Assembly: GCA_040399905.1 (NCBI GenBank)
Contig: JBBARG010000008.1
Span: 40,650 to 104,649 of the forward strand
Reading direction: 5' to 3'
Source: Burkholderiaceae bacterium
GTDB lineage: Bacteria; Pseudomonadota; Gammaproteobacteria; Burkholderiales; Burkholderiaceae_D
DNA length: 64,000 nucleotides
Shown here one piece after another: positions 15,353 to 63,905 of this stretch. Made by a program: the position numbers and the translations under genes. Position 1 is the first letter of the stretch. Every line of letters starts with the position of its first letter. The notes beneath the pieces are model-generated. The model ran no database searches, had not been told where the DNA came from, and saw only the letters and a list, made by a program, of their open reading frames with translations.

Positions 15353-16372
15353 TCACAGCAAGGAATCCTTGCCGACGCCGCGCTCCATCATTGCGTGCTT
15401 CAACCGAACCAGCCCTTCCTGCTGAATCTGCCTGACCCTTTCGCGCGTCACACCCATCTCCTCAGCCAGTTCTTCCAGTGTCGCAGGGTCGCCGTGGTCG
15501 AGCCCGAAGCGGCGCATGATGACGAGGCGCTGCTTGATGGGCATGGTGTGCAGCCAGTTTCGTAACAGCAGAAGCATCTCATGATGCTCGGCGTGTGCTT
15601 CTGGCCCGCCCTCTGTCGCGTCTGCCAGCAAGTCCAGCAAGCTTGATTGAGGATCGCCATCGAGCGGCGTATCAAGCGAGGTCACATGATCTGCCATGGA
15701 CAGCGTTGCCTGCACTTCTTCAACCGTGCGCTCGACCAGATGCGCTATGTCTTCGATGCTGGCATCGTGGCCATTCGACTGGCGTGCTTCAAGGTGGTAC
15801 TTCGCTCGCAATACCAAATTGAGCTCGCGTATCCTATGCACCGGCAAACGTATCGTGCGCGCCTGATTCATGATTGCGCGCTCTATGCTTTGCCGTATCC
15901 ACCAGGTCGCATAAGTAGAAAAACGAAAACCGCGCTCAGGTTCGAATTTTTCTATTGCATGGATCAAACCGAGGTTGCCTTCCTCTATGAGGTCGAGCAA
16001 AACAACGCCGCGATTCACGTAGTGCTTGGCGATCGACACGACCAGCCGCAGGTTATGTTCAATCATTGTCTGGCGCGCAGAAAAATCCCCTTGTCTGGAT
16101 AAAGTAGAGAAATGGATTTCCTGCTCGACTGTCAGCAAAGCGCGCAGCCCTATCTGGTTCAGATAACGCTGCGTAGCATCAGTAGAAAGTTCAGCGGCCA
16201 GTAAAGAGCGTAATTCTTCCAGACCTGCGACCTGCAGTTCTGGCTCTTCATGCACTGTGTCTTTGGTGACAGGGTCGCCGAACGTGCCGTCGACACCGTC
16301 AATTGCCGGCATGCCGGTCAGTTCTGCTGGTATATCGCCATCGTCCGGCGACTCACAGGCTTTGCGTGTCAT
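15353..16372 (-). CDS. rpoS: RNA polymerase sigma factor RpoS
   Basis: Sigma70 regions NLRLVVSIAK, GFRFSTYATWWIRQSIERA and TRERVRQIQ; directly downstream of nlpD. Confidence 0.93.
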   Translation of the reverse strand: MTRKACESPDDGDIPAELTGMPAIDGVDGTFGDPVTKDTVHEEPELQVAGLEELRSLLAAELSTDATQRYLNQIGLRALLTVEQEIHFSTLSRQGDFSARQTMIEHNLRLVVSIAKHYVNRGVVLLDLIEEGNLGLIHAIEKFEPERGFRFSTYATWWIRQSIERAIMNQARTIRLPVHRIRELNLVLRAKYHLEARQSNGHDASIEDIAHLVERTVEEVQATLSMADHVTSLDTPLDGDPQSSLLDLLADATEGGPEAHAEHHEMLLLLRNWLHTMPIKQRLVIMRRFGLDHGDPATLEELAEEMGVTRERVRQIQQEGLVRLKHAMMERGVGKDSLL

Positions 16373-16386
16373 TTGACGACTGTCTT

Positions 16387-17337
16387 TTAACGGTTAGGTA
16401 GCAGACCGGCAGGATCAACGGGCTTGCCCAGCTGACGGATTTCAAAATGCAGCTTGACGGTGTCGGAATCGGAATCGCCCATTTCAGCGATTCTTTGTCC
16501 TTTTATGACGTTTTGACCTTCCTTGACGAGGATGGTTTTGTTGTGTGCGTAGGCCGACACCAAGCCTTCGTTATGGTCAACGATGATGAGGTTGCCATAG
16601 CCACGCATATTTTGCGCATACAACACCGTGCCATCGCTGGCTGCCATCACTGGCTGGCCTGACAGGCCGGCAATATCTATGCCTTTGCGTGTTTGTTCAA
16701 ATGCTTTGATAACCTTGCCATCCGTAGGCCAGATGAAACGCACATTGCCGTTTGCCAGCGATTCTTTTTTATCATTGTCAGGTACGCGCGGCTGTAGTGA
16801 TTTATCTGACTGCGGTTTTTCTGACTGCAGCTTTTCCAACTGCTGAGACTGCTGCTGCATTTCAGCGAATGTCTGATCCGAATACAAACGCTTCTCGCCT
16901 GCAGGACTCGTCTTGGCGCCAGCTAAGGACGGTAAATTTTTACGAGGTAAGGCTTGCGCACCGTCCAGCGGGCGCACTTCAATACCGGAATCGAGATTGA
17001 CTGTGCCGACTTGTGGACCTTCCGGCGGCACAACGCGCAGCGACTGTCCTACCTTGATATCGTTGGCATTAGCCAGACGATTCCAGTCAACCAGATCGCG
17101 CCAGTTCTGACTGAACTGCTGCGAGATACGTAATAGCGTATCGCCTTTTTTTACCGTATAAAAACCTGGCTGATCAGCCACCAGCGTAGTCGGCTCGGCA
17201 TCTTTTTTTGCTGCCGCTTTAGGCGCAGTTTTAATACCGGTACGGTCATCAATGGGCGCATTGGAAGGCATTTCTGCGCACGAAGACAACAGCGCAGCGC
17301 CGAGGACCAGAAGAGATAGAGATAAGGAATTTTTCAT
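16387..17337 (-). CDS. nlpD: LysM/M23 lipoprotein NlpD
   Basis: Lipobox LSSC, LysM YTVKKGDTL, M23 domain with degenerate zinc site (RKGIDI, KLHFEIR). Confidence 0.92.
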   Translation of the reverse strand: MKNSLSLSLLVLGAALLSSCAEMPSNAPIDDRTGIKTAPKAAAKKDAEPTTLVADQPGFYTVKKGDTLLRISQQFSQNWRDLVDWNRLANANDIKVGQSLRVVPPEGPQVGTVNLDSGIEVRPLDGAQALPRKNLPSLAGAKTSPAGEKRLYSDQTFAEMQQQSQQLEKLQSEKPQSDKSLQPRVPDNDKKESLANGNVRFIWPTDGKVIKAFEQTRKGIDIAGLSGQPVMAASDGTVLYAQNMRGYGNLIIVDHNEGLVSAYAHNKTILVKEGQNVIKGQRIAEMGDSDSDTVKLHFEIRQLGKPVDPAGLLPNR

Positions 17338-17361
17338 CAGCAGATCATGTTCATTCTGCAT

Positions 17362-18246
17362 TTAACCAAGCGTGCCGGGCTTCAAAGGCACAAAGTGGCA
17401 ATGCTCGAGGGTTTCTGTTGTCCACTCATTACGGCTAACGCGGCAGATCAATTGCAGCACCTGATTGCGATTTCCAACCGGTGCGACAAGACGACCGCCG
17501 ATGGCCAGCTGATCAAGCAAAGCCTGCGGCACTTCCAGACCGGCTGCCGCCAGAATAATGCCGTCAAATGGGGCAACCTGCGGGAAACCCAGCATACCAT
17601 CCCCATAGTGCAACCGAAGATTGGCAATGCGTAATGGCCGCAAGTTGTTGCGCGCCAGTTCGTGCAAGGGCTTGATGCGCTCTATCGAATAGACTTCCTT
17701 TGCCACCTGCGCCAGCACGGCAGCCTGATAGCCGCAACCGGTGCCGATTTCTAGAACCTTGTCGAGCTTGCCGGTGGCAGTGGCCCGCATGACTTCAATC
17801 ATGCGCGCGACAATATACGGCTGCGAAATGGTCTGGTGATAGCCAATCGGCAAAGAAGCATCGATGTATGCCTGACTGGCCAGTCCCGGCTCCAGAAAAT
17901 AATGGCGCGGCACTGCTTCCATGGCGGCCAGTACTTGCTGGTCTTTCACGCCTTGCTGCGCAACCCGCTGCACCATTGCCCGGCGCACCGCTTCCGACAC
18001 CAGCGGCTGATTTGCCGGGCGCGCGGCTACAGTATTAGCACTAGCTGATTTTTTTTGCAGCGCTGAAGCTGGCGCATGTGGCGAACGGGGTGCATGTCGT
18101 GCAGCGTTCTGCGTGGCTGTCTGCGTGCTGTGACTGCGTGGCGGAACAAAGGAGCGATTACGACCGACATCGCCCGTAATAGAATCAAGCGTCAGCGGAA
18201 AACGCTTTTTGCCGTCGCCCTTACCGTCACTCTTACCATCGCTCAT
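17362..18246 (-). CDS. pcm: Protein-L-isoaspartate O-methyltransferase
   Basis: [17 protein letters not shown] and [13 protein letters not shown]; surE-pcm-nlpD order. Confidence 0.95.
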
Positions 18247-57341: not shown

Positions 57342-58745
57342 TCAATGATGTCCGTCATGCCCGCCCGATGGTTTGCGCGCCTTCAGCTCGCCTTCTACAG
57401 GCTTGCCCTTCGCTGGCATTGACTGCCCGCCTGCTGCTTGTGATGTTGCGGCCTCCGGTAGCTTGCCGGTCCACTCCCATGCCACAGTCGAGGGTGGGTG
57501 TTTGTACCAGCCGGGGTTACTGTAGTCACCTCGTTTCTGATCTTTGCGCACTTTCAGCACTGTAAACATACCGCCCATTTCAACGGAGCCGAAAGGCCCG
57601 TCTCCGGTCATCATCGGCAACGTATTTTCGGGTAGCGGCATCTCCATGTCAGCCATGTCACCCATGCCGCGCTCACCCATCACCATATAGTCCGGCACTA
57701 ACTGATTGATCTTTTCTGCTATGCCGCGATGATCAACGCCGATCATGGTCGGCACCTGATGACCCATTGCATTCATGGTGTGATGCGACTTGTGGCAATG
57801 AAAAGCCCAGTCACCGGGCTCGGTTGCTTCAAACTCGATTGCACGCATCTGCCCTACTGCGACATCGACTGTCACTTCCGGCCAGCGCGAAGCAGGTGGC
57901 GTCCATCCACCGTCGGTGCCAGTGACCATGAATTCATGACCGTGCAAATGAATAGGATGATTCGTCATCGTCAAATTACCGAAGCGGATACGTACCCGGT
58001 CACCCTGACGCACATGCATGGAATCGATGCCCGGAAAAACACGACTGTTAAAACCAAACAAATTAAAGTCGAGCATGGTGTTGACTTTGGGCGTGGCGCT
58101 GCCCGGCTCGATGTCGAAGCTGTTCAACAGAAAAACGAAGTCGCGGTCGACGCGCATGAAGTCCGGATCTTTAGGGTGCGTGACCCAGAAGCCGTACATG
58201 CCCATCGCCATCTGCACCATTTCGTCAGCATGCGGGTGGTACATGAAAGTTCCGGCACGCTTGGCCACAAATTCGTAGACGAAGGTCTTGCCCGAAGCGA
58301 TAGAGGGCTGGGTCAATCCGCTGACGCCATCCATACCATTGGGCAGACGTTGCCCATGCCAATGCACGCTTGTGGCCTCCGGCAGACGATTCGTCACAAA
58401 GAGGCGAACGCGATCGCCTTCAACCACTTCAATTGTCGGCCCCGGTGACTGGCCGTTGTAACCCCATAGCTTGGCTTTCATGCCCGGCGCGAACTCGCGT
58501 TCGACTGGCTCGGCAACGAGATGGAATTCCTTGACGCCCTGATTCATGCGCCAGGGAAGTGACCAGCCATTGAGTGTCACAACCGGATAGTACGGTCGTC
58601 CATCCGGCGGCAACGGTGGCGGCACTGTCGCCGGGCCAGTCGCAACGGCAGCTTCGGGCAAGGACGCGGCGCCGACTCGGCTAACCAAGCCAGTGCCCAA
58701 TGCGACCAGACCAGCTGTGTTGAAGAACTCTCTGCGTGAAACCAT
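57342..58745 (-). CDS. Multicopper oxidase (Tat-exported)
   Basis: SRREFF Tat signal; HWHG, MYHPH, HPIHLHGH and HCHKSHH copper motifs; Met-rich region. Confidence 0.92.
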   Translation of the reverse strand: MVSRREFFNTAGLVALGTGLVSRVGAASLPEAAVATGPATVPPPLPPDGRPYYPVVTLNGWSLPWRMNQGVKEFHLVAEPVEREFAPGMKAKLWGYNGQSPGPTIEVVEGDRVRLFVTNRLPEATSVHWHGQRLPNGMDGVSGLTQPSIASGKTFVYEFVAKRAGTFMYHPHADEMVQMAMGMYGFWVTHPKDPDFMRVDRDFVFLLNSFDIEPGSATPKVNTMLDFNLFGFNSRVFPGIDSMHVRQGDRVRIRFGNLTMTNHPIHLHGHEFMVTGTDGGWTPPASRWPEVTVDVAVGQMRAIEFEATEPGDWAFHCHKSHHTMNAMGHQVPTMIGVDHRGIAEKINQLVPDYMVMGERGMGDMADMEMPLPENTLPMMTGDGPFGSVEMGGMFTVLKVRKDQKRGDYSNPGWYKHPPSTVAWEWTGKLPEAATSQAAGGQSMPAKGKPVEGELKARKPSGGHDGHH

Positions 58746-58758
58746 GATCTGGTCCTTT

Positions 58759-60165
58759 TTAATGTGCAGCACCAGTACCGGTAATAGCGCTGGCGGCCGG
58801 GCTAGCCGGCAACGACGCAGCGAGCATGCTGCCACCATGCATGGCGAATTGCAGCTCGGTGTCGGCGACCCAGAAATCGCGCTGCGCATTGATTGCCGCA
58901 TTGATGCTGGTAATTTGCGCGCGTGAATCGACGAGTAATTCGAACACGCTGGCAAGCATGCCGTTATAGCGAAGCAGTACTTCTTCAGAGATGCGTTTTC
59001 TGAGCGGGACGATCTCGTCGCGGTAATGACGTGATACTTCAAAATTGGTGCGGTAAGCCGAATAGGATTCGCGTGCTTCGGAACGTGCCTGCACCGCTAT
59101 GTCGGCAGTGCGCTGCAGCGAGCGCATGTAGATTGACTCGGCACGCCGCGTGCGCGCCGTACCCCAGTCAAATAACGGCAGCGACAATTCGACTGTATAG
59201 CCTTCAGCAAGGTTTGATCCGGTCGCGCTTTTATTTTGATAGCCTGCTTCGAGCACATTAACAAAACGTGTACTGCGGGTCAGGCCGAGATTTTTTGCCG
59301 TTGCCTCGGTCTCGAGTTTGGCGACTTGCACATCAAGCCGCTGCGCTATGGCTTTGGATTCGATTTCGTCAGCCGACATCAATGCGATTGGCAAATCCGG
59401 CAACCTGTCCGGCAGACTGATATTGGTCTGCTGCCCAGATAAACCCAGCAAACGAACCAAGCGCTCGCGTGTGGCAGTTTCGTCATGTACCGCACGTGCT
59501 ATTTGCGCCGTGACTTCAGCATTAAACACCTGTTCGCGTGCTGCATCGAGCTTGCTCCAGTTGCCGGCCTTTGCCATTCGCTGTGCCAGCTCCGCAGCAG
59601 ACTCAGTGGCAAGACCTACCTTACGCATGTAGCTCAAAGACTGCTTGGCTGCAACGGCCTGAAAATAAGCGCGGTGCGTATCGGCGACCAGTCGCACCGC
59701 TTGCAGTGCGGTTTGTATTTGTACCTGATTGAAACGACGTTCCTCAATCGCTTTGCGAAGCGGCATTGTCAGCAAGCCACCCAGATCCAGTAGCAGGGAG
59801 CGCTCCAATTCTGTTTCACCGCTACCTGACAGCCGGCCAAATTCAAAACGCGGATTACGCACGCGCCCCGCCTGCACCAAATCTGCTTCCGCCACTCCCA
59901 AGTCGGCCAGCGCTGACTGCAAACGTTTGTTGTTGAGTAGTGCAAGCTGCGCGGCACTATCTGACGTCAATGGGGCGGCGAGTAATTTTGCGATGCGTTC
60001 CTGAGTCTGCACAGCAGAAGCTTCGCTGTCGCGCTGCACTGATTGACCGGTGCGCGCCTGCGTCAATTCAGAGACGCGGTTCAAGCCGCCGTCTGGCGAA
60101 AAACTGGCGCAACCAGCTAAGATTCCAGTCAGCGTTAAAACGGTTATGCGATTTCTTGAAATCAT
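58759..60165 (-). CDS. TolC-family outer-membrane lipoprotein associated with the copper oxidase
   Basis: Lipobox LAGC, OEP repeats (LSLPLFDWG; LRYNGML.SVFELL); directly upstream of the multicopper oxidase. Confidence 0.88.
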   Translation of the reverse strand: MISRNRITVLTLTGILAGCASFSPDGGLNRVSELTQARTGQSVQRDSEASAVQTQERIAKLLAAPLTSDSAAQLALLNNKRLQSALADLGVAEADLVQAGRVRNPRFEFGRLSGSGETELERSLLLDLGGLLTMPLRKAIEERRFNQVQIQTALQAVRLVADTHRAYFQAVAAKQSLSYMRKVGLATESAAELAQRMAKAGNWSKLDAAREQVFNAEVTAQIARAVHDETATRERLVRLLGLSGQQTNISLPDRLPDLPIALMSADEIESKAIAQRLDVQVAKLETEATAKNLGLTRSTRFVNVLEAGYQNKSATGSNLAEGYTVELSLPLFDWGTARTRRAESIYMRSLQRTADIAVQARSEARESYSAYRTNFEVSRHYRDEIVPLRKRISEEVLLRYNGMLASVFELLVDSRAQITSINAAINAQRDFWVADTELQFAMHGGSMLAASLPASPAASAITGTGAAH

Positions 60166-60304
60166 GGTTTTATTCCGGCTTGGCAGTTACAAACGTAGTC
60201 GATTTGAACACTAGACTCAAAATCAAACCCATCGTCAAGCAAACGCATGCTCTCGAAAGCCAAATCAGATCAAATCAGTTAGCGCTTTGCAACTCAGAAA
60301 ATAT

Positions 60305-60739
60305 TTAGTTGGGGTCGCGCCTTAGCTTGCGGCGGTCCAGACCTTCATAAAGCGGCGTATCGATTGCGCCCGCCACGAGATGATGCCGCTGGCGATCCAG
60401 TGTCGCAAGAACGGTAGCAATGTCGGCTGCCTGAATATTCATTTCAAGTAAAACCTGCCTCATCAGGGTAACCATTTCTTCATATGCTTGGGCAGTGATG
60501 TTAAGCGGCTGGTGTGCAGCGCGCATGGCCTCGGTGTCATAAGGGGCAACGGGTTTACCCATGATGTAGGCAACAACGGCGATCTGATGGCGCAAGAGCG
60601 CTTCTTTGCTCATGCCATCCAGGTAGCGACGCAGGACAGAATTGGCAAGCCAGCGCTCGGTCAATTTGCTCACCATTTTAGTGGCCATTGGCACGCCGCC
60701 ATACTTGTCAAACAGCGTTTGCGATGACAAATCGTTCAT
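60305..60739 (-). CDS. Group I-like truncated haemoglobin with a C-terminal tail
   Basis: LFDKYGG start, E-helix RHQ, proximal MRAAH..LNIT, short 2/2 globin length. Confidence 0.75.
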   Translation of the reverse strand: MNDLSSQTLFDKYGGVPMATKMVSKLTERWLANSVLRRYLDGMSKEALLRHQIAVVAYIMGKPVAPYDTEAMRAAHQPLNITAQAYEEMVTLMRQVLLEMNIQAADIATVLATLDRQRHHLVAGAIDTPLYEGLDRRKLRRDPN

Positions 60740-61086: not shown

Positions 61087-62013
61087 ATGCAACTAATGTG
61101 GGTGTCTGGCCCCACTGGTGCCGTGCGCACTATCTCAATTACCGCTCGCAAAATGCTCATCAGCATATGCGCGCTGGCGTTCGCTTTGGTTACGACGGGT
61201 TTTCTGCTTTATCTGGTCGGCTTCAAAATTGCGATTGAAATACGTCCTGAACTGGCGCGCTCACTCGGCGGCGTGACGACCGAAGCCGAGCAGGAAAAAA
61301 TGGAATCGGTTTACCGCAATCGCTTGGCCAAACTCCAGGGCATGCTTGATTCAACGTCACAAGAAATACGTCAATTACAGACGCTGAAAAACCGTTTCAT
61401 GGAAATAGCTACGCCAGTAGGATTACGCGAAAAACGCAGCGCTGAAGATGGCAAAGGCGGCCCATTCGTCTCTTCCGAGCGTGATGCAAGCAGCCCACGT
61501 CAACCGCTAACCAACACACTCGACGATGCCGTTGATGAATTCGGCCAGTTCCAAAAAGTAGTGGGCAGCATGCGTCAAGACTGGGCCAGACAACTGACAT
61601 GGCTTTACACACTTCCGACCGGCGTGCCAGTGCGTGGTGATTTTCATGTGAGCAGCGGCTTTGGCATGCGTAATGATCCGTTCACCGGCACATTGGCGCG
61701 TCATGAAGGCCTCGATTTCACTGCAGCGGCAGGCACGCACATTGTGGTGACCGCAGATGGTGTTGTGACCCGCTCTGGTTGGGAAGACACCTACGGAAAT
61801 ATTATCGAAGTCACGCATGCCGAAGGCTTCGTGACGCGCTATGCACACATCAGCAAGCGCCTGGCAGTCGAAGGGCAGAAAGTTAAACGCGGCGATCACA
61901 TTGCCGATGTGGGCAGCACCGGTCGCTCAACGGGACCACATTTGCACTATGAAGTCTTCCGCTTCGGCCGCGTATTAAATCCGGCGCAGGTTCTACCGAT
62001 TGGTAATAGCTGA
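61087..62013 (+). CDS. M23 metallopeptidase with N-terminal TM helix and coiled coil
   Basis: Intact zinc motifs HEGLD (HxxxD) and GPHLHYEV (HxH). Confidence 0.92.
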   Translation: MQLMWVSGPTGAVRTISITARKMLISICALAFALVTTGFLLYLVGFKIAIEIRPELARSLGGVTTEAEQEKMESVYRNRLAKLQGMLDSTSQEIRQLQTLKNRFMEIATPVGLREKRSAEDGKGGPFVSSERDASSPRQPLTNTLDDAVDEFGQFQKVVGSMRQDWARQLTWLYTLPTGVPVRGDFHVSSGFGMRNDPFTGTLARHEGLDFTAAAGTHIVVTADGVVTRSGWEDTYGNIIEVTHAEGFVTRYAHISKRLAVEGQKVKRGDHIADVGSTGRSTGPHLHYEVFRFGRVLNPAQVLPIGNS

Positions 62014-62170
62014 CAATCGCAACAATCGCAATATTCAATATTTGCATCAGCATCACAAGAAAACTGCTTCTGTCTGAAGCCGGATTACATTTTCTTCATG
62101 CTGCGATAAAAAAACAAGTTCACGCAGGTTCAGGTTATATTGAATCTGAGCCAGACGAGGAGAGATGCAC

Positions 62171-62602
62171 ATGTTCCGCAAATTGAAACAAAACAAAATG
62201 ATGCCGACTCAGGAGAAGTTCGACACCCTGATCGGCGCCACGACCGAAATTTACGGCCGTCTGGTGCTGCTCGATAGCGTGCGGATTGATGGCAAAGTCA
62301 TTGGCAATATCGAGACGGCCAAAGACAAAAAAGTCACGGTTGCTATTGGCCGCTCAGGTGAAGTATCAGGCGACATTACTGCACATCGCGTGATGGTAGC
62401 CGGTAAAATCGAAGGCAATATTTACGCAACCGAGCGCGCGGAATTTCACAAAGATTCAGAAGTGCGCGGGGATATTACCTACGGCACGATAGGCGTCGAG
62501 CATGGCGCCAAATTGCTTGGCCTGGTGATCCAGGCGCAAAATAATTCTAGCAGCACGACAGATGCGCAGACCGTCATAAAAATGGCGCAAGAAAAGAAGT
62601 AA
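62171..62602 (+). CDS. Bactofilin (CcmA/BacA-like) 1
   Basis: DTLIG..TEIYG.L.....VRIDGKVIGNI beta-helix repeats. AGGAG lies 8 nt before ATG at 62171 but only 2 nt before 62165. Confidence 0.9.
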   Translation: MFRKLKQNKMMPTQEKFDTLIGATTEIYGRLVLLDSVRIDGKVIGNIETAKDKKVTVAIGRSGEVSGDITAHRVMVAGKIEGNIYATERAEFHKDSEVRGDITYGTIGVEHGAKLLGLVIQAQNNSSSTTDAQTVIKMAQEKK

Positions 62603-62622
62603 TCTTTTCTTACGCCATCCGC

Positions 62623-62652
62623 AAAGCCTGATTGGAAACGATCAGGCTTTTT
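62623..62652. terminator. Bidirectional terminator between convergent bactofilins
   Basis: AAAGCCTGAT-tggaaacg-ATCAGGCTTT with A-run on the left and T-run on the right; overlaps the stop of bactofilin 2. Confidence 0.75.
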
Positions 62653-63124
62653 TCTTGAGTTCGCCTTTTACAATACCACCGCGCTGGATGGTAATGCTCT
62701 TGAAGCTGACTTTACCGTCGACCACGGCGCGACTGCCAATAGTCAGGTCGCGGCAATCAAGCGCGCCGGAGAAGTTACCTTTGACGTTCATGGTGTCGCA
62801 CGTGACATTGCCATCCAAAACACCAGATACGCCGATCTGGATCGAATGCAAAGCCAAGGTACCGCGCACTGTGCCGTCAATGGTCAGATAACCGCTGGAG
62901 CGGATCTCACCGATAAACTCGAAACCTTCACTAATAATCGAAGGCTTCAGATTACCGTTGGCTGGTTTAACTAAACCATTTCCATTGGAAGTCTGATTAT
63001 AGTCAACCTCGCTGGGTACGGTGACAGCTTCAACTTCCGGAGGCGTAGTTTCGCTGGCAGGCGGAATTGTCTCGATAGGTGAGGCCATTTTTTCCCGTTC
63101 GTCGTTACGTTTCTTGTTGAACAC
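62642..63124 (-). CDS. Bactofilin 2 with a Pro/Glu-rich N-terminal extension
   Basis: SIISEGFEFIGEI...LTIDGTVRG repeats; GTG start after an AGGA RBS. Confidence 0.87.
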   Translation of the reverse strand: MFNKKRNDEREKMASPIETIPPASETTPPEVEAVTVPSEVDYNQTSNGNGLVKPANGNLKPSIISEGFEFIGEIRSSGYLTIDGTVRGTLALHSIQIGVSGVLDGNVTCDTMNVKGNFSGALDCRDLTIGSRAVVDGKVSFKSITIQRGGIVKGELKKKA

Positions 63125-63143
63125 GTCAATGTCCTGAAATCAA

Positions 63144-63512
63144 TTAAGCAATAGAGCTTGGCAAGCTTGAAGGACTGCCATCCCCCTCGATTTTTTGCAG
63201 CGCGCCTTGCAGGTCGCCGCCCTTTTCGATTTCAATCTCTGCATACTGGACTGAGCCCAGCGCTTTACCTGTAGAGCGAATAAACAAAGATTTTTTCGCA
63301 GTCAGTGTGTCATGAATCTCGCCGCGCAAATCGATGATGTCGGCAGTGACTTTGCCTTTGATGACGCCTGAGCTGGCAACGATAAGTTCACGCGCCGTAA
63401 TTTCGCCTTCAATGCTTCCTGAAATGGATGCGATATCCGGAACGATGAAGGATCCGCTCAATACGACGCCTTCGCCGACAGTCAGACATCCACTTTGATT
63501 AGAATCTGCCAA
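63144..63512 (-). CDS. Bactofilin 3
   Basis: LTVGEGVVLSG...ISGSIEGEI...G.VQYAEIEIEKGG repeats; TTG start 5 nt after GGAGG. Confidence 0.85.
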   Translation of the reverse strand: MADSNQSGCLTVGEGVVLSGSFIVPDIASISGSIEGEITARELIVASSGVIKGKVTADIIDLRGEIHDTLTAKKSLFIRSTGKALGSVQYAEIEIEKGGDLQGALQKIEGDGSPSSLPSSIA

Positions 63513-63840
63513 CAGTGCCTCCTGGGGTTTCAGTCAAATAAAAACACATTACAAGATTGTCACTGGGAAACTGCTTCACTCGCCAAACTTTACGAAAGCA
63601 AACTTATCCCTAAACATGCCAATTTGTATCTTAGGAGAAATTATACGGTGAATTGTGCGAAAAACAGTTAAAAATTAACGCAAGTTACTAATTATCATAC
63701 TGTTTTCATGTCGCAAAGCAGCATTGCATGGTGCTTTTAGCTGTGCAGACCAGAGAAAAGAAGATCAAATTATTGAAATAAATTATTTCTCATATTGAAA
63801 ATTGAAATTAGATTTATATGACGAGAGGGCAGATAATTCA

Positions 63841-63905
63841 TTTGTCTCCTCTATATCACCTCTTCAGGTATAGATTCAGCCCGCTCCCTGAGCGGGCTTT
63901 TTTTT
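63841..63905 (+). ncRNA. Anti-Shine-Dalgarno small RNA resembling the betaproteobacterial toxic sRNA family
   Basis: 5' TGTCTCCTC seed, stem CTATAT/GTATAG around a CACCTC loop, GATTC linker, terminator AGCCCGCTC-CCT-GAGCGGGCT plus T-run. Confidence 0.7.

What the first reader, a model, noticed from the sequence alone, without database searches (positions are those of the whole stretch)
61087..63512. M23 peptidase with three distinct bactofilins in a convergent layout
Seen: an M23 peptidase with intact zinc ligands followed by bactofilin 1 on the plus strand faces a two-gene bactofilin operon on the minus strand, sharing one terminator. Bactofilins 1 and 2 begin MFRK and MFNK, while bactofilin 3 (TTG start) lacks that motif. 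Established: M23-bactofilin pairs shape cells (Helicobacter Csd1/CcmA, Hyphomonas LmdC/BacA), and an N-terminal MF(S)K-type peptide targets bactofilins to membranes. Inference: a heteropolymeric cytoskeleton in which subunit 3 is recruited by co-polymerisation. It could drive curvature or a specialised morphotype in a lineage where this is little described.
Basis: partly seen in the sequence, partly recalled or inferred. Interest (0 to 1): 0.62.

Follow-up and report, generated by a model that had tools for sequence, protein, structure and literature searches.

The report
M23 peptidase with three bactofilins
A freshwater Burkholderiales bacterium encodes a cell-wall-cutting M23 enzyme next to three anciently diverged bactofilin cytoskeleton genes; enzyme-plus-bactofilin pairs are a published cell-shaping module, but this three-bactofilin set, kept together across the whole order, has not been studied.

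Summary
Window 61087-63512 encodes a bitopic M23 peptidase with intact catalytic residues, followed by bactofilin Bac1 (true start 62171, MFRK). Facing them is a bac3-bac2 operon (TTG and GTG starts). Bac1 and Bac2 carry MF.K membrane-targeting N-termini; Bac3 does not.

The M23-bactofilin pair matches the published LmdC/BacA module in gene layout and predicted architecture. The convergent layout is not special. In about 230 related loci from GTDB species-representative genomes, the same three bactofilin families and this M23 recur in at least four gene orders. In Comamonadaceae, Bac3 and Bac2 flank a second M23 peptidase, while M23-Bac1 lies elsewhere in the genome.

The three families are ancient paralogues (22-24% identity, each monophyletic). 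Of 74 Bac3 loci, 71 have Bac2 downstream. The M23's 19-residue cytoplasmic tail is its most conserved part (residues 1-10 invariant in 81/81).

Best reading: a membrane-bound bactofilin scaffold positions the M23 through its tail, and Bac3/Bac2 form an accessory pair. Co-polymerisation and any effect on cell shape are untested. No paper found describes bactofilins in this order. Cultured relatives (Pernthalerella) exist. Verdict: a known kind of system in a conserved, uncharacterised three-paralogue form, of moderate interest.

The parts
61087..62013 (+). M23A: bitopic LmdC-like M23 (LytM) metallopeptidase, 308 aa. Cytoplasmic tail residues 1-19, TM about 23-45, two long periplasmic helices (66-108, 142-174), LytM domain about 188-303.
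   Evidence: Pfam PF01551 3.2e-30. H206xxxD210, H254 and H285xH287 present; top hydropathy window at residues 23-41. AF2 topology at low confidence, pLDDT 58.7. All NCBIfam equivalogs (MepM, ShyA, DipM, Pgp3, NlpD, EnvC) score far below their cut-offs.
61087..61143 (+). Codons 1-19 of M23A: cytoplasmic tail MQLMWVSGPTGAVRTISIT, a predicted beta-hairpin and the candidate bactofilin-binding peptide.
   Evidence: Residues 1-10, V13, S17 and T19 are invariant in 81/81 orthologues. The tail keeps 88-91% identity while LytM falls to 64-67% and the TM to 34-52%. AF2 places strands at 2-7 and 12-17, but with pLDDT below 50. In LmdC a cytoplasmic beta-hairpin binds BacA (PMC10945521).
62157..62164 (+). 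Shine-Dalgarno sequence GAGGAGAG for bac1.
   Evidence: Read directly from the sequence; 8 nt upstream of ATG 62171.
62171..62602 (+). Bac1: bactofilin, 143 aa, N-terminus MFRKLKQNK (MTS-type), pI 9.1. The most conserved of the four proteins.
   Evidence: Pfam PF04519 5.2e-22. Start conserved, ATG in 42/42. 87-100% identity in clade I, against 67-94% for M23A. PDB hits are only 6ria and 2n3d. pI.
62623..62650 (+). Intrinsic-terminator hairpin for M23A-bac1, with T-tract 62648-62653. Its 3' arm and T-tract are the reverse complement of the last bac2 codons (AAA AAA GCC TGA).
   Evidence: Terminator scan; MFE -18.5 kcal/mol and comparison with relatives; sequence. Metatranscriptome contig depth dips at 62532-62633.
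62642..63124 (-). Bac2: bactofilin, 160 aa, GTG start, N-terminus MFNKKRND (MTS-type). A Pro/Glu/Thr/Ser-rich linker of about 50 residues precedes the core (62-156). pI 6.6.
   Evidence: Pfam PF04519 3.7e-20. GTG conserved. Best PDB match is Caulobacter BacA 2n3d, E 7.8e-8. Linker composition and pI.
63144..63512 (-). Bac3: bactofilin, 122 aa, TTG start, no MTS (N-terminus MADSNQSGCL), acidic (pI 4.6). Lies 19 nt upstream of bac2 in the same operon.
   Evidence: Pfam PF04519 3.5e-18. TTG in 40/40 clade loci. AF2 pLDDT 88 with a beta-helix at 10-107. Foldseek best match 2n3d BacA, TM 0.76/0.89, rmsd 1.7 A. A 629-nt metatranscriptome contig spans the bac2/bac3 junction.
63640..63645 (-). Candidate -10 box (TATAAT on the minus strand) of the bac3-bac2 operon, inside a conserved block (about 63620-63651). 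No recognisable -35.
   Evidence: GAAATTATACGG is invariant in 5 aligned relatives. Not reported by the two-hexamer scan. RNA contigs reach 63543, and a relative's contig reads on upstream. This is an inference.

Best explanation
The locus is the local form of a gene set conserved across Burkholderiales. It combines two modules.

Module A is a LmdC/BacA-type pair. M23A is a bitopic, catalytically intact M23 endopeptidase. Its short, invariant cytoplasmic tail is proposed to dock onto polymers of Bac1, a membrane-binding bactofilin. This would fix where the periplasmic LytM domain cuts peptidoglycan cross-links.

Module B is an older two-gene pair. Bac3 has no membrane-targeting sequence and is acidic. 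Bac2 has a membrane-targeting sequence and a long flexible linker. The two are co-transcribed and closely spaced. In Comamonadaceae this pair brackets its own second peptidase (M23B). In the window's lineage M23B is missing from the operon and module B sits tail-to-tail with module A.

The most likely mechanism is that Bac3 reaches the membrane only by assembling with Bac2 and/or Bac1, and that the combined scaffold tunes where and how strongly M23A is recruited.

Shown: gene identities, catalytic residues, N-terminal motifs, the Bac3 fold, conserved linkage, and tail conservation.
Inferred: tail-bactofilin binding, co-assembly, and any effect on cell shape.
For: Identity: Pfam, catalytic motifs and TM, Bac3 fold.

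Match to the published LmdC architecture (short cytoplasmic N-terminus with beta-hairpin, TM, coiled coil, M23): AF2 secondary structure against the paper's description.

Tail under the strongest constraint in the protein: 88-91% identity against 64-67% for LytM; residues 1-10 invariant in 81/81.

MTS: Bac1 and Bac2 have F2 and K4, plus further K/R. The published consensus is MFSKKKK, with F2 and K4/K7 essential.

Linkage: the four-gene cluster is present in nearly all of L001-L042. Of 74 Bac3 loci, 71 have Bac2 downstream. Bac1 lies within 2.5 kb in 61/67, and an M23 gene within 5 kb in 40/46. The cluster persists through gene orders I, I', II and III and a five-gene form in L159. In four Polynucleobacter MAGs, Bac1 stays with Bac3-Bac2 while M23A sits on another contig.

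Module B with its own M23: 70/70 loci. M23B also has a conserved hairpin-like cytoplasmic motif.

Ancient, co-inherited paralogues: each family is monophyletic, with 22-24% identity between families.

All three keep a hydrophobic residue at the BacA F130 polymerisation position.

Precedent for paralogue co-assembly: BacA/BacD and BacNOP.

Expression: metatranscriptome contigs cover bac1, bac2 and bac3, and one spans the bac3-bac2 junction.
Against: There is no direct evidence of any protein-protein contact, polymerisation, membrane binding or shape phenotype.

The M23A model is low-confidence, and the hairpin residues have pLDDT below 50.

Membership of the LmdC phylogenetic clade could not be tested.

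In Limnohabitans the two modules lie about 640 kb apart, so they can operate unlinked.

It is unknown whether the window's genome carries M23B elsewhere.

The loci surveyed are the best 80 hits of each search, so the linkage figures apply to the nearer part of each family.

Metatranscriptome contigs come from related populations, may contain DNA, and do not measure expression.
Confidence: 0.55

Rival explanations
1. Two independent systems that merely sit side by side. M23A+Bac1 is a self-contained LmdC/BacA module. Bac3+Bac2 form a separate scaffold with a different client, either another envelope enzyme or a function unrelated to peptidoglycan. The two polymers never mix.
For: In Limnohabitans/Comamonadaceae the modules are at separate loci and module B has its own peptidase, M23B. 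The window's two transcription units are convergent and separately terminated. Between-family identity is only 22-24%. Bactofilin paralogues can form filaments on their own (PMC5703909).
Against: Outside Comamonadaceae the modules stay within about 2.5 kb of each other despite repeated rearrangement. This includes a single three-gene bac3-bac2-bac1 operon (type II). It also includes genomes where Bac1 stays with Bac3/Bac2 rather than with M23A. Bac3 has no membrane anchor of its own.
Confidence: 0.25
2. Bac3 is a modulator rather than a structural co-subunit. As an acidic subunit without an MTS, it would cap filaments, break them up, or dilute the number of membrane anchors. That would lower membrane avidity and limit the size or lifetime of Bac2/Bac1 assemblies.
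For: Membrane binding of bactofilins depends on many weak MTS contacts arrayed on a polymer (PMC12448750), so inserting MTS-less subunits should weaken it. The pI values contrast sharply: 4.6 for Bac3 against 9.1 for Bac1. The weak TTG start is conserved in 40/40 loci, which suggests controlled dosage. Bac3 has a distinct conserved N-terminus.
Against: Bac3 has a complete canonical beta-helix and keeps a hydrophobic residue at the F130-equivalent position, as expected of a normal polymerising subunit. Nothing in the data separates capping from co-polymerisation.
Confidence: 0.12
3. The clustering is inherited synteny with no functional meaning, and one or more of the paralogues is redundant, as BacN is in Myxococcus or BacD in Hyphomonas.
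For: Auxiliary bactofilin paralogues without a phenotype are documented. All loci surveyed belong to one order.
Against: Gene order and orientation have changed at least four times while proximity was kept. All three proteins are under strong purifying selection: Bac1 87-100% and Bac3 85-98% identity where M23A is 67-94%. Start codons and N-terminal motifs are conserved.
Confidence: 0.05

Closest known systems
LmdC-BacA module of Hyphomonas neptunium and Rhodospirillum rubrum (Pohl et al. 2024, eLife, PMC10945521)
   Same: An M23 endopeptidase gene lies next to a bactofilin gene. The peptidase is bitopic, with a short cytoplasmic N-terminus predicted as a beta-hairpin, one TM helix, long periplasmic helices and a C-terminal M23 domain with intact catalytic residues. 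The bactofilin has an MF.K-type N-terminus. That paper already lists the pairing in 226 species, including one Burkholderiales member (Rubrivivax gelatinosus).
   Different: Here M23A-Bac1 are separated by 157 nt rather than overlapping. Two further bactofilin families (Bac2, Bac3) are linked to the pair. Related genomes carry a second M23 type flanked by Bac3 and Bac2. The tail sequence (MQLMWVSGPTG.VRTISIT) could not be compared with LmdC. Neither binding nor a shape role has been tested.
BacNOP of Myxococcus xanthus (Lin et al. 2017, PMC5703909)
   Same: Three clustered bactofilin paralogues with unequal flanking regions. They co-assemble into one scaffold and contribute unequally to it.
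   Different: The clients there are ParABS/PadC (chromosome segregation), not an M23 peptidase. BacNOP are in one operon, while the window has two convergent units. No PadC-like gene was noticed here.
BacA/BacB of Caulobacter crescentus and BacA/BacD of H. neptunium
   Same: A main MTS-bearing bactofilin plus an auxiliary paralogue that co-localises with it. BacD needs BacA for proper positioning. Like Caulobacter BacA, Bac2 has an MTS followed by a Pro-rich linker, and BacA is its best PDB match.
   Different: Those paralogues are not encoded next to each other. The Caulobacter client is the synthase PbpC. The auxiliary paralogue there is not known to lack an MTS in a conserved way.
Csd1/Csd2/CcmA helical-shape complex of Helicobacter pylori
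   Same: A bactofilin (CcmA) is encoded beside M23-family proteins and determines cell curvature.
   Different: H. pylori has one bactofilin and two M23 paralogues (active Csd1, inactive Csd2), plus Csd5/Csd7/MurF. The window has one M23 and three bactofilins. The match to the related NCBIfam Pgp3 model is far below its cut-off (67.6 against 300 bits).

Membership tests
Bactofilin (Pfam PF04519 / DUF583) | Bactofilin domain scoring above the Pfam gathering threshold | tested here: met
   Bac1 78.4, Bac2 72.4 and Bac3 66.1 bits, against a cut-off of 27.9.
Bactofilin (Pfam PF04519 / DUF583) | Right-handed beta-helical core flanked by short disordered tails | tested here: met
   Tested by structure for Bac3 only: AF2 pLDDT 88, strands 10-107, disordered 1-6 and 112-117; best Foldseek matches 2n3d (TM 0.76/0.89) and 6rib. 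For Bac1 and Bac2 there are only sequence matches to 2n3d and 6ria.
Bactofilin (Pfam PF04519 / DUF583) | Hydrophobic residue at the polymerisation interface (equivalent of C. crescentus BacA F130) | tested here: met
   HMMER alignments to 2n3d place L (Bac1), V (Bac2) and L (Bac3) at that position.
Bactofilin (Pfam PF04519 / DUF583) | Nucleotide-independent self-polymerisation | not testable with these tools
   Needs purified protein and electron microscopy or sedimentation.
MTS-bearing (canonical membrane-binding) bactofilins | N-terminal MFSKKKK-like peptide with F2 and K4/K7 (PMC12448750) | tested here: met
   Bac1 MFRKLKQNK and Bac2 MFNKKRND, conserved in orthologues.
MTS-bearing (canonical membrane-binding) bactofilins | The same feature, tested for Bac3 | tested here: not met
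   The Bac3 N-terminus is MADSNQSGCL, with no F2 and no Lys. The family motif M-A-[DE]-x-N-Q-x-G-C-L is conserved. No upstream start exists.
LmdC-type M23 endopeptidase | C-terminal M23/LytM domain with intact zinc ligands and catalytic histidines | tested here: met
   PF01551 3.2e-30; H206, D210, H254, H285, H287, invariant in alignment A3.
LmdC-type M23 endopeptidase | Bitopic topology: short cytoplasmic N-terminus and a single TM helix | tested here: met
   One strong hydropathy peak at residues 23-45; AF2 helix 20-52.
LmdC-type M23 endopeptidase | Periplasmic coiled-coil region between the TM helix and the M23 domain | tested here: inconclusive
   AF2 gives long helices at 66-108 and 142-174, but with pLDDT of about 50-60. 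No coiled-coil predictor was run.
LmdC-type M23 endopeptidase | Conserved cytoplasmic beta-hairpin that binds the bactofilin | tested here: inconclusive
   Strands are predicted at 2-7 and 12-17, but with pLDDT below 50. The segment is the most conserved part of the protein. Binding cannot be tested here.
LmdC-type M23 endopeptidase | Gene adjacent to a bactofilin gene | tested here: met
   bac1 starts 157 nt after the M23A stop codon. The pair is kept in L001-L067.
LmdC-type M23 endopeptidase | Falls in the LmdC clade of M23 peptidases (Figueroa-Cuilan et al. 2021) | not tested
   No LmdC reference sequence could be retrieved with the tools, and no NCBIfam LmdC model matched.
MepM / ShyA / DipM / NlpD / EnvC / Pgp3 (NCBIfam equivalogs) | Whole-protein score above the curated cut-off | tested here: not met
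   The best is MepM at 112.7 against 341 bits. All matches are to the LytM domain only.
BacNOP-type three-bactofilin scaffold | Three paralogues in one operon together with the PadC adaptor and ParAB clients | tested here: not met
   The window has two convergent units. The neighbours are a truncated globin on one side, and a small RNA plus merR-ihfA-pheTS on the other. Type II relatives do have a single bac3-bac2-bac1 operon, but next to M23A.

The most novel reading that the evidence does not exclude
Burkholderiales carry a two-module bactofilin system that has not been described. In it, a dedicated acidic subunit without a membrane anchor (Bac3) co-polymerises with an anchored long-linker subunit (Bac2). 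This would set the membrane avidity or curvature preference of the scaffold. In lineages that lost the module's own peptidase (M23B), such as the window's, the pair would have been rewired onto the single LmdC-like M23A/Bac1 module. If so, the composition of a mixed bactofilin polymer, and not one bactofilin alone, would decide where peptidoglycan is cut.
Probability: 0.25. Interest if true: 0.6.

Novelty: new variant of a known kind. Interest (0 to 1): 0.42.

Why it matters
Bactofilin-M23 modules are a recently established way for bacteria to localise cell-wall remodelling. Two questions remain open: how paralogous bactofilins divide the work, and whether they form mixed polymers (both raised in PMC5703909 and PMC12448750).

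This gene set offers a natural test case:
- three anciently separated families kept together across an order of abundant freshwater bacteria;
- one family conserved without a membrane anchor;
- natural variants with one or two M23 peptidases, and with fused or separated modules;
- axenic strains now available (Pernthalerella GE-M3, MaE-M21 and MsE-6; Polynucleobacter; Limnohabitans).

The invariant 19-residue M23A tail is a ready-made peptide for binding assays.

If nothing beyond the known LmdC/BacA mechanism emerges, the finding is still a useful annotation. These genes are currently labelled only 'CcmA' and 'MepM/NlpD'.

Tried and rejected
(1) ORF start 62165 for Bac1: rejected in favour of 62171, because of SD spacing and because all orthologues begin MF-.

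(2) 'Shared bidirectional terminator': downgraded. The T-tract is on the + strand only, and the hairpin overlaps the bac2 stop codon. Relatives use a different, symmetric terminator.

(3) Bac3 as a truncated or decaying copy: rejected. It shows 85-98% conservation, a confident complete beta-helix, and a conserved start and N-terminal motif.

(4) Recent tandem duplication: rejected by phylogeny. The families share 22-24% identity and each is monophyletic.

(5) The convergent layout as a meaningful design: rejected. At least four gene orders exist.

(6) RNA evidence: no isolate RNA-seq was found. Only metatranscriptome contigs from related populations are available, and these are qualitative.

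(7) The AF2 model of M23A from a shallow alignment (71-91% identity) came out with low confidence. It was used for topology only, and no fold search was run on it.

(8) Alignment A4 was too diverse for the locus search and was replaced by A5.

(9) Literature: no paper in the library treats bactofilins in Burkholderiales. 'Bactofilin' plus 'Burkholderia' gave only incidental mentions.

(10) The Pohl 2024 source table was searched for twelve betaproteobacterial genera; only Rubrivivax was found.

(11) Cell shape of Pernthalerella: not reported in the describing paper or in its held supplements.

(12) Not used: the large representative-protein search and the third homologue search. They return no taxonomy or genomic context, so they would not have changed the verdict.
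Full report
WHAT IS THERE

Pfam assigns them to Peptidase_M23 (3.2e-30) and to Bactofilin three times (5.2e-22, 3.7e-20, 3.5e-18).

The M23 protein (called M23A here, 308 aa) has:
- the full LytM catalytic set: H206xxxD210, H254 and H285xH287;
- a single hydrophobic segment at residues 23-45.

Against NCBIfam it matches MepM, ShyA, DipM, Pgp3, NlpD and EnvC only through the LytM domain, and far below every curated cut-off. It is therefore none of these named enzymes.

Reading the DNA and comparing orthologues fixes the starts:
- Bac1: ATG 62171 (MFRK), not the longer-ORF ATG at 62165. GAGGAGAG lies 8 nt upstream, and the start is ATG in 42/42 clade loci.
- Bac2: GTG 63124 (MFNK), with AGGA 7 nt upstream. 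GTG is used throughout the clade.
- Bac3: TTG 63512, with AGGAGG 5 nt upstream. TTG is used in 40/40 clade loci, and there is no upstream in-frame start.

bac3 and bac2 are 19 nt apart.

A single hairpin (62623-62650) lies between the convergent units. Its T-tract serves the plus strand only. Its 3' arm and T-tract are the reverse complement of bac2's last codons (Lys-Lys-Ala-stop). Relatives with longer spacers carry a separate symmetric terminator instead.

WHOSE GENOME

The window comes from a freshwater metagenome. The nearest reference is a Burkholderiaceae MAG, with M23A at 94% identity. The same four-gene cluster is in isolates GE-M3, MaE-M21 and MsE-6. These were recently named Pernthalerella gen. 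nov. (GTDB g__SYFN01), with genomes of 2.8-3.1 Mbp and 54-55% GC (PMC12381374 supplement). No cell morphology is given for them.

THE LAYOUT IN RELATIVES

Three scans of the GTDB species-representative genomes gave about 230 related loci. I classified their ORFs against the window's proteins.

The three bactofilins define three families. Each is monophyletic in a neighbour-joining tree (24, 23 and 23 members). Between families the identity is 22-24%, as low as to Caulobacter BacA or the Thermus bactofilin. The subtrees are broadly parallel. These are ancient, co-inherited paralogues.

The genes occur in several arrangements:
- Type I (the window, L001-L042 and others): M23A> Bac1> <Bac2 <Bac3.
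- Type I' (a subset of Polynucleobacter): Bac3> Bac2> <Bac1, with M23A on another contig of the same MAG in four cases.
- Type II (other Polynucleobacter, Curvibacter): a single-strand Bac3> Bac2> Bac1> unit, with M23A convergent or divergent beside it.
- Type III (Limnohabitans and other Comamonadaceae, 70/70 loci with enough flank): Bac3> M23B> Bac2. M23B is a second, 347-aa bitopic M23 peptidase. M23A> Bac1 lies elsewhere in the same genome, for example about 640 kb away on contig CAUPRM010000001.
- One genome (L159): all five genes in a row.

Among 74 Bac3 loci with enough downstream sequence:
- 71 have Bac2 downstream on the same strand: 67 within -1 to 33 nt, and 4 with M23B in between;
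- Bac1 lies within 2.5 kb in 61/67;
- an M23 gene lies within 5 kb in 40/46.

The convergent layout is therefore incidental. The association of the genes is not.

THE PROTEINS

M23A's cytoplasmic tail (MQLMWVSGPTGAVRTISIT) is its most conserved segment. It keeps 88-91% identity in all three groups of orthologues, while the LytM domain falls to 64-67% and the TM segment to 34-52%. Residues 1-10 are invariant in 81/81 sequences.

AF2, run on a shallow alignment, gives a low-confidence model (pLDDT 58.7). Its topology is a beta-hairpin (2-7, 12-17), a TM helix, two long helices and a LytM domain. This is the architecture published for LmdC, whose cytoplasmic beta-hairpin binds BacA (PMC10945521). 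M23B also has a conserved hairpin-like motif before its TM helix.

Bac1 and Bac2 carry N-termini that fit the published membrane-targeting consensus MFSKKKK, in which F2 and K4/K7 are essential (PMC12448750). Bac2 adds a Pro/Glu-rich linker of about 50 residues, like Caulobacter BacA, which is its best PDB match.

Bac3 has a different, conserved, acidic N-terminus (M-A-[DE]-x-N-Q-x-G-C-L). It is nonetheless a complete canonical bactofilin beta-helix: pLDDT 88, with TM 0.76/0.89 and rmsd 1.7 A to BacA 2n3d.

All three paralogues keep a hydrophobic residue at the BacA F130 polymerisation position. Their pI values are 9.1, 6.6 and 4.6 for Bac1, Bac2 and Bac3. In clade I, Bac1 is the most conserved protein (87-100% identity), ahead of Bac3 (85-98%), Bac2 (69-98%) and M23A (67-94%).

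EXPRESSION

Freshwater metatranscriptome assemblies contain contigs 85-99% identical to bac1, bac2 and bac3. One 629-nt contig crosses the bac3-bac2 junction. Depth drops at the hairpin, and no contig in these runs covers 63552-63857. This is qualitative only. The contigs come from related populations and may include DNA.

A block conserved in five relatives contains TATAAT on the minus strand at 63640-63645. It is a candidate -10 element for the bac3-bac2 operon.

HOW IT MOST LIKELY WORKS

Module A (M23A+Bac1) matches the LmdC/BacA module in gene layout and predicted architecture. A membrane-attached bactofilin polymer captures the peptidase's cytoplasmic tail and so localises peptidoglycan cleavage.

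Module B (Bac3+Bac2) is an older accessory pair. In Comamonadaceae it has its own peptidase. In the window's lineage it has none in the operon and sits beside module A.

Bac3 has no anchor of its own, so it probably reaches the membrane by assembling with Bac2 and/or Bac1. Published precedents for such co-assembly are BacA/BacD and BacNOP.

I give this combined model 0.55. The rivals are:
- two independent modules (0.25);
- Bac3 as a cap or avidity-diluting modulator (0.12);
- synteny without function (0.05).

None of the protein contacts, and no effect on cell shape, could be tested here.

COMPARISON AND NOVELTY

The M23-bactofilin adjacency is already published as a conserved module in 226 species, listed as pairs only. 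Among twelve betaproteobacterial genera I searched for in that table, only Rubrivivax appears. Co-assembly of several bactofilin paralogues is also known.

I could not find the following described anywhere:
- the three-family set conserved across an order;
- its conserved anchor-less member, always encoded just upstream of an anchored one;
- the two-peptidase and one-peptidase variants.

I therefore rate it a new variant of a known kind, of moderate interest. Part of its value is that cultured strains now exist in which it can be tested.

Noticed in passing
window 63843-63905 (+): Rfam RF02278 'Betaproteobacteria toxic small RNA': 66.1 bits against a gathering score of 50, E 2.7e-12. It ends in the terminator hairpin 63878-63898. 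Its CU-rich motifs are conserved in four relatives. It explains the otherwise orphan plus-strand terminator in the roughly 630-bp spacer between bac3 and a conserved merR-ihfA(HU/IHF)-pheT-pheS block that lies just beyond the window's end.
   Followed up: partly
window 62642-62653: The last codons of bac2 (AAA AAA GCC TGA, read on the minus strand) double as the 3' stem arm and T-tract of the plus-strand terminator of bac1. The same arrangement is seen in L001, L003, L025, L032 and L036, but not in relatives with longer spacers.
   Followed up: partly
window 63620-63651 (-): A sequence block invariant in five relatives contains TATAAT on the minus strand (63640-63645) with no recognisable -35. 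It is a candidate promoter element or regulator-binding site for bac3-bac2, giving a 5' UTR of about 120 nt.
   Followed up: no
window 15353-18246 (-): A classical pcm - nlpD-like - rpoS cluster. The second M23-domain gene of the window (16387-17361) is NlpD/ActS-like (178 bits, below the 311-bit cut-off). It lies between RpoS (462 bits, above cut-off) and protein-L-isoaspartate O-methyltransferase. It is unrelated to the bactofilin locus.
   Followed up: yes
window 57342-60739: The left flank of the cluster holds a truncated (bacterial-like) globin (60305-60739, PF01152) and two further long minus-strand ORFs. From their translations these look like a multicopper oxidase (57342-59042) and an outer-membrane efflux protein (58759-60165), but neither was run against a family library. 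This flank differs among relatives (only L001 also has the globin), whereas the right flank is conserved.
   Followed up: partly
L159 1038-4799; L130 4974-7812: Unusual variants. L159 has M23A>Bac1>Bac3>M23B>Bac2 as five consecutive same-strand genes. L130 (Polynucleobacter alcilacus) has Bac3>Bac2><Bac1 plus an extra Bac1-like gene directly upstream of M23A.
   Followed up: no
L001-L244 record titles: Many freshwater Burkholderiales MAGs carrying this cluster are deposited under implausible names: 'uncultured Bifidobacterium sp.', 'Bordetella parapertussis', 'uncultured Cellvibrio sp.' and 'Bacteroidetes bacterium'. One bin (ErkenSummer_bin-5019) holds both a type I cluster (L002) and a Limnohabitans-type Bac3 on a 1.5-kb contig (L194), which suggests bin contamination.
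   Followed up: no
window 62171-63512: The three bactofilins differ strongly in net charge: pI 9.1 (Bac1), 6.6 (Bac2) and 4.6 (Bac3). The two minus-strand genes use conserved non-ATG starts (GTG, TTG), while bac1 uses ATG. Both points hint at controlled stoichiometry or electrostatic pairing.
   Followed up: partly
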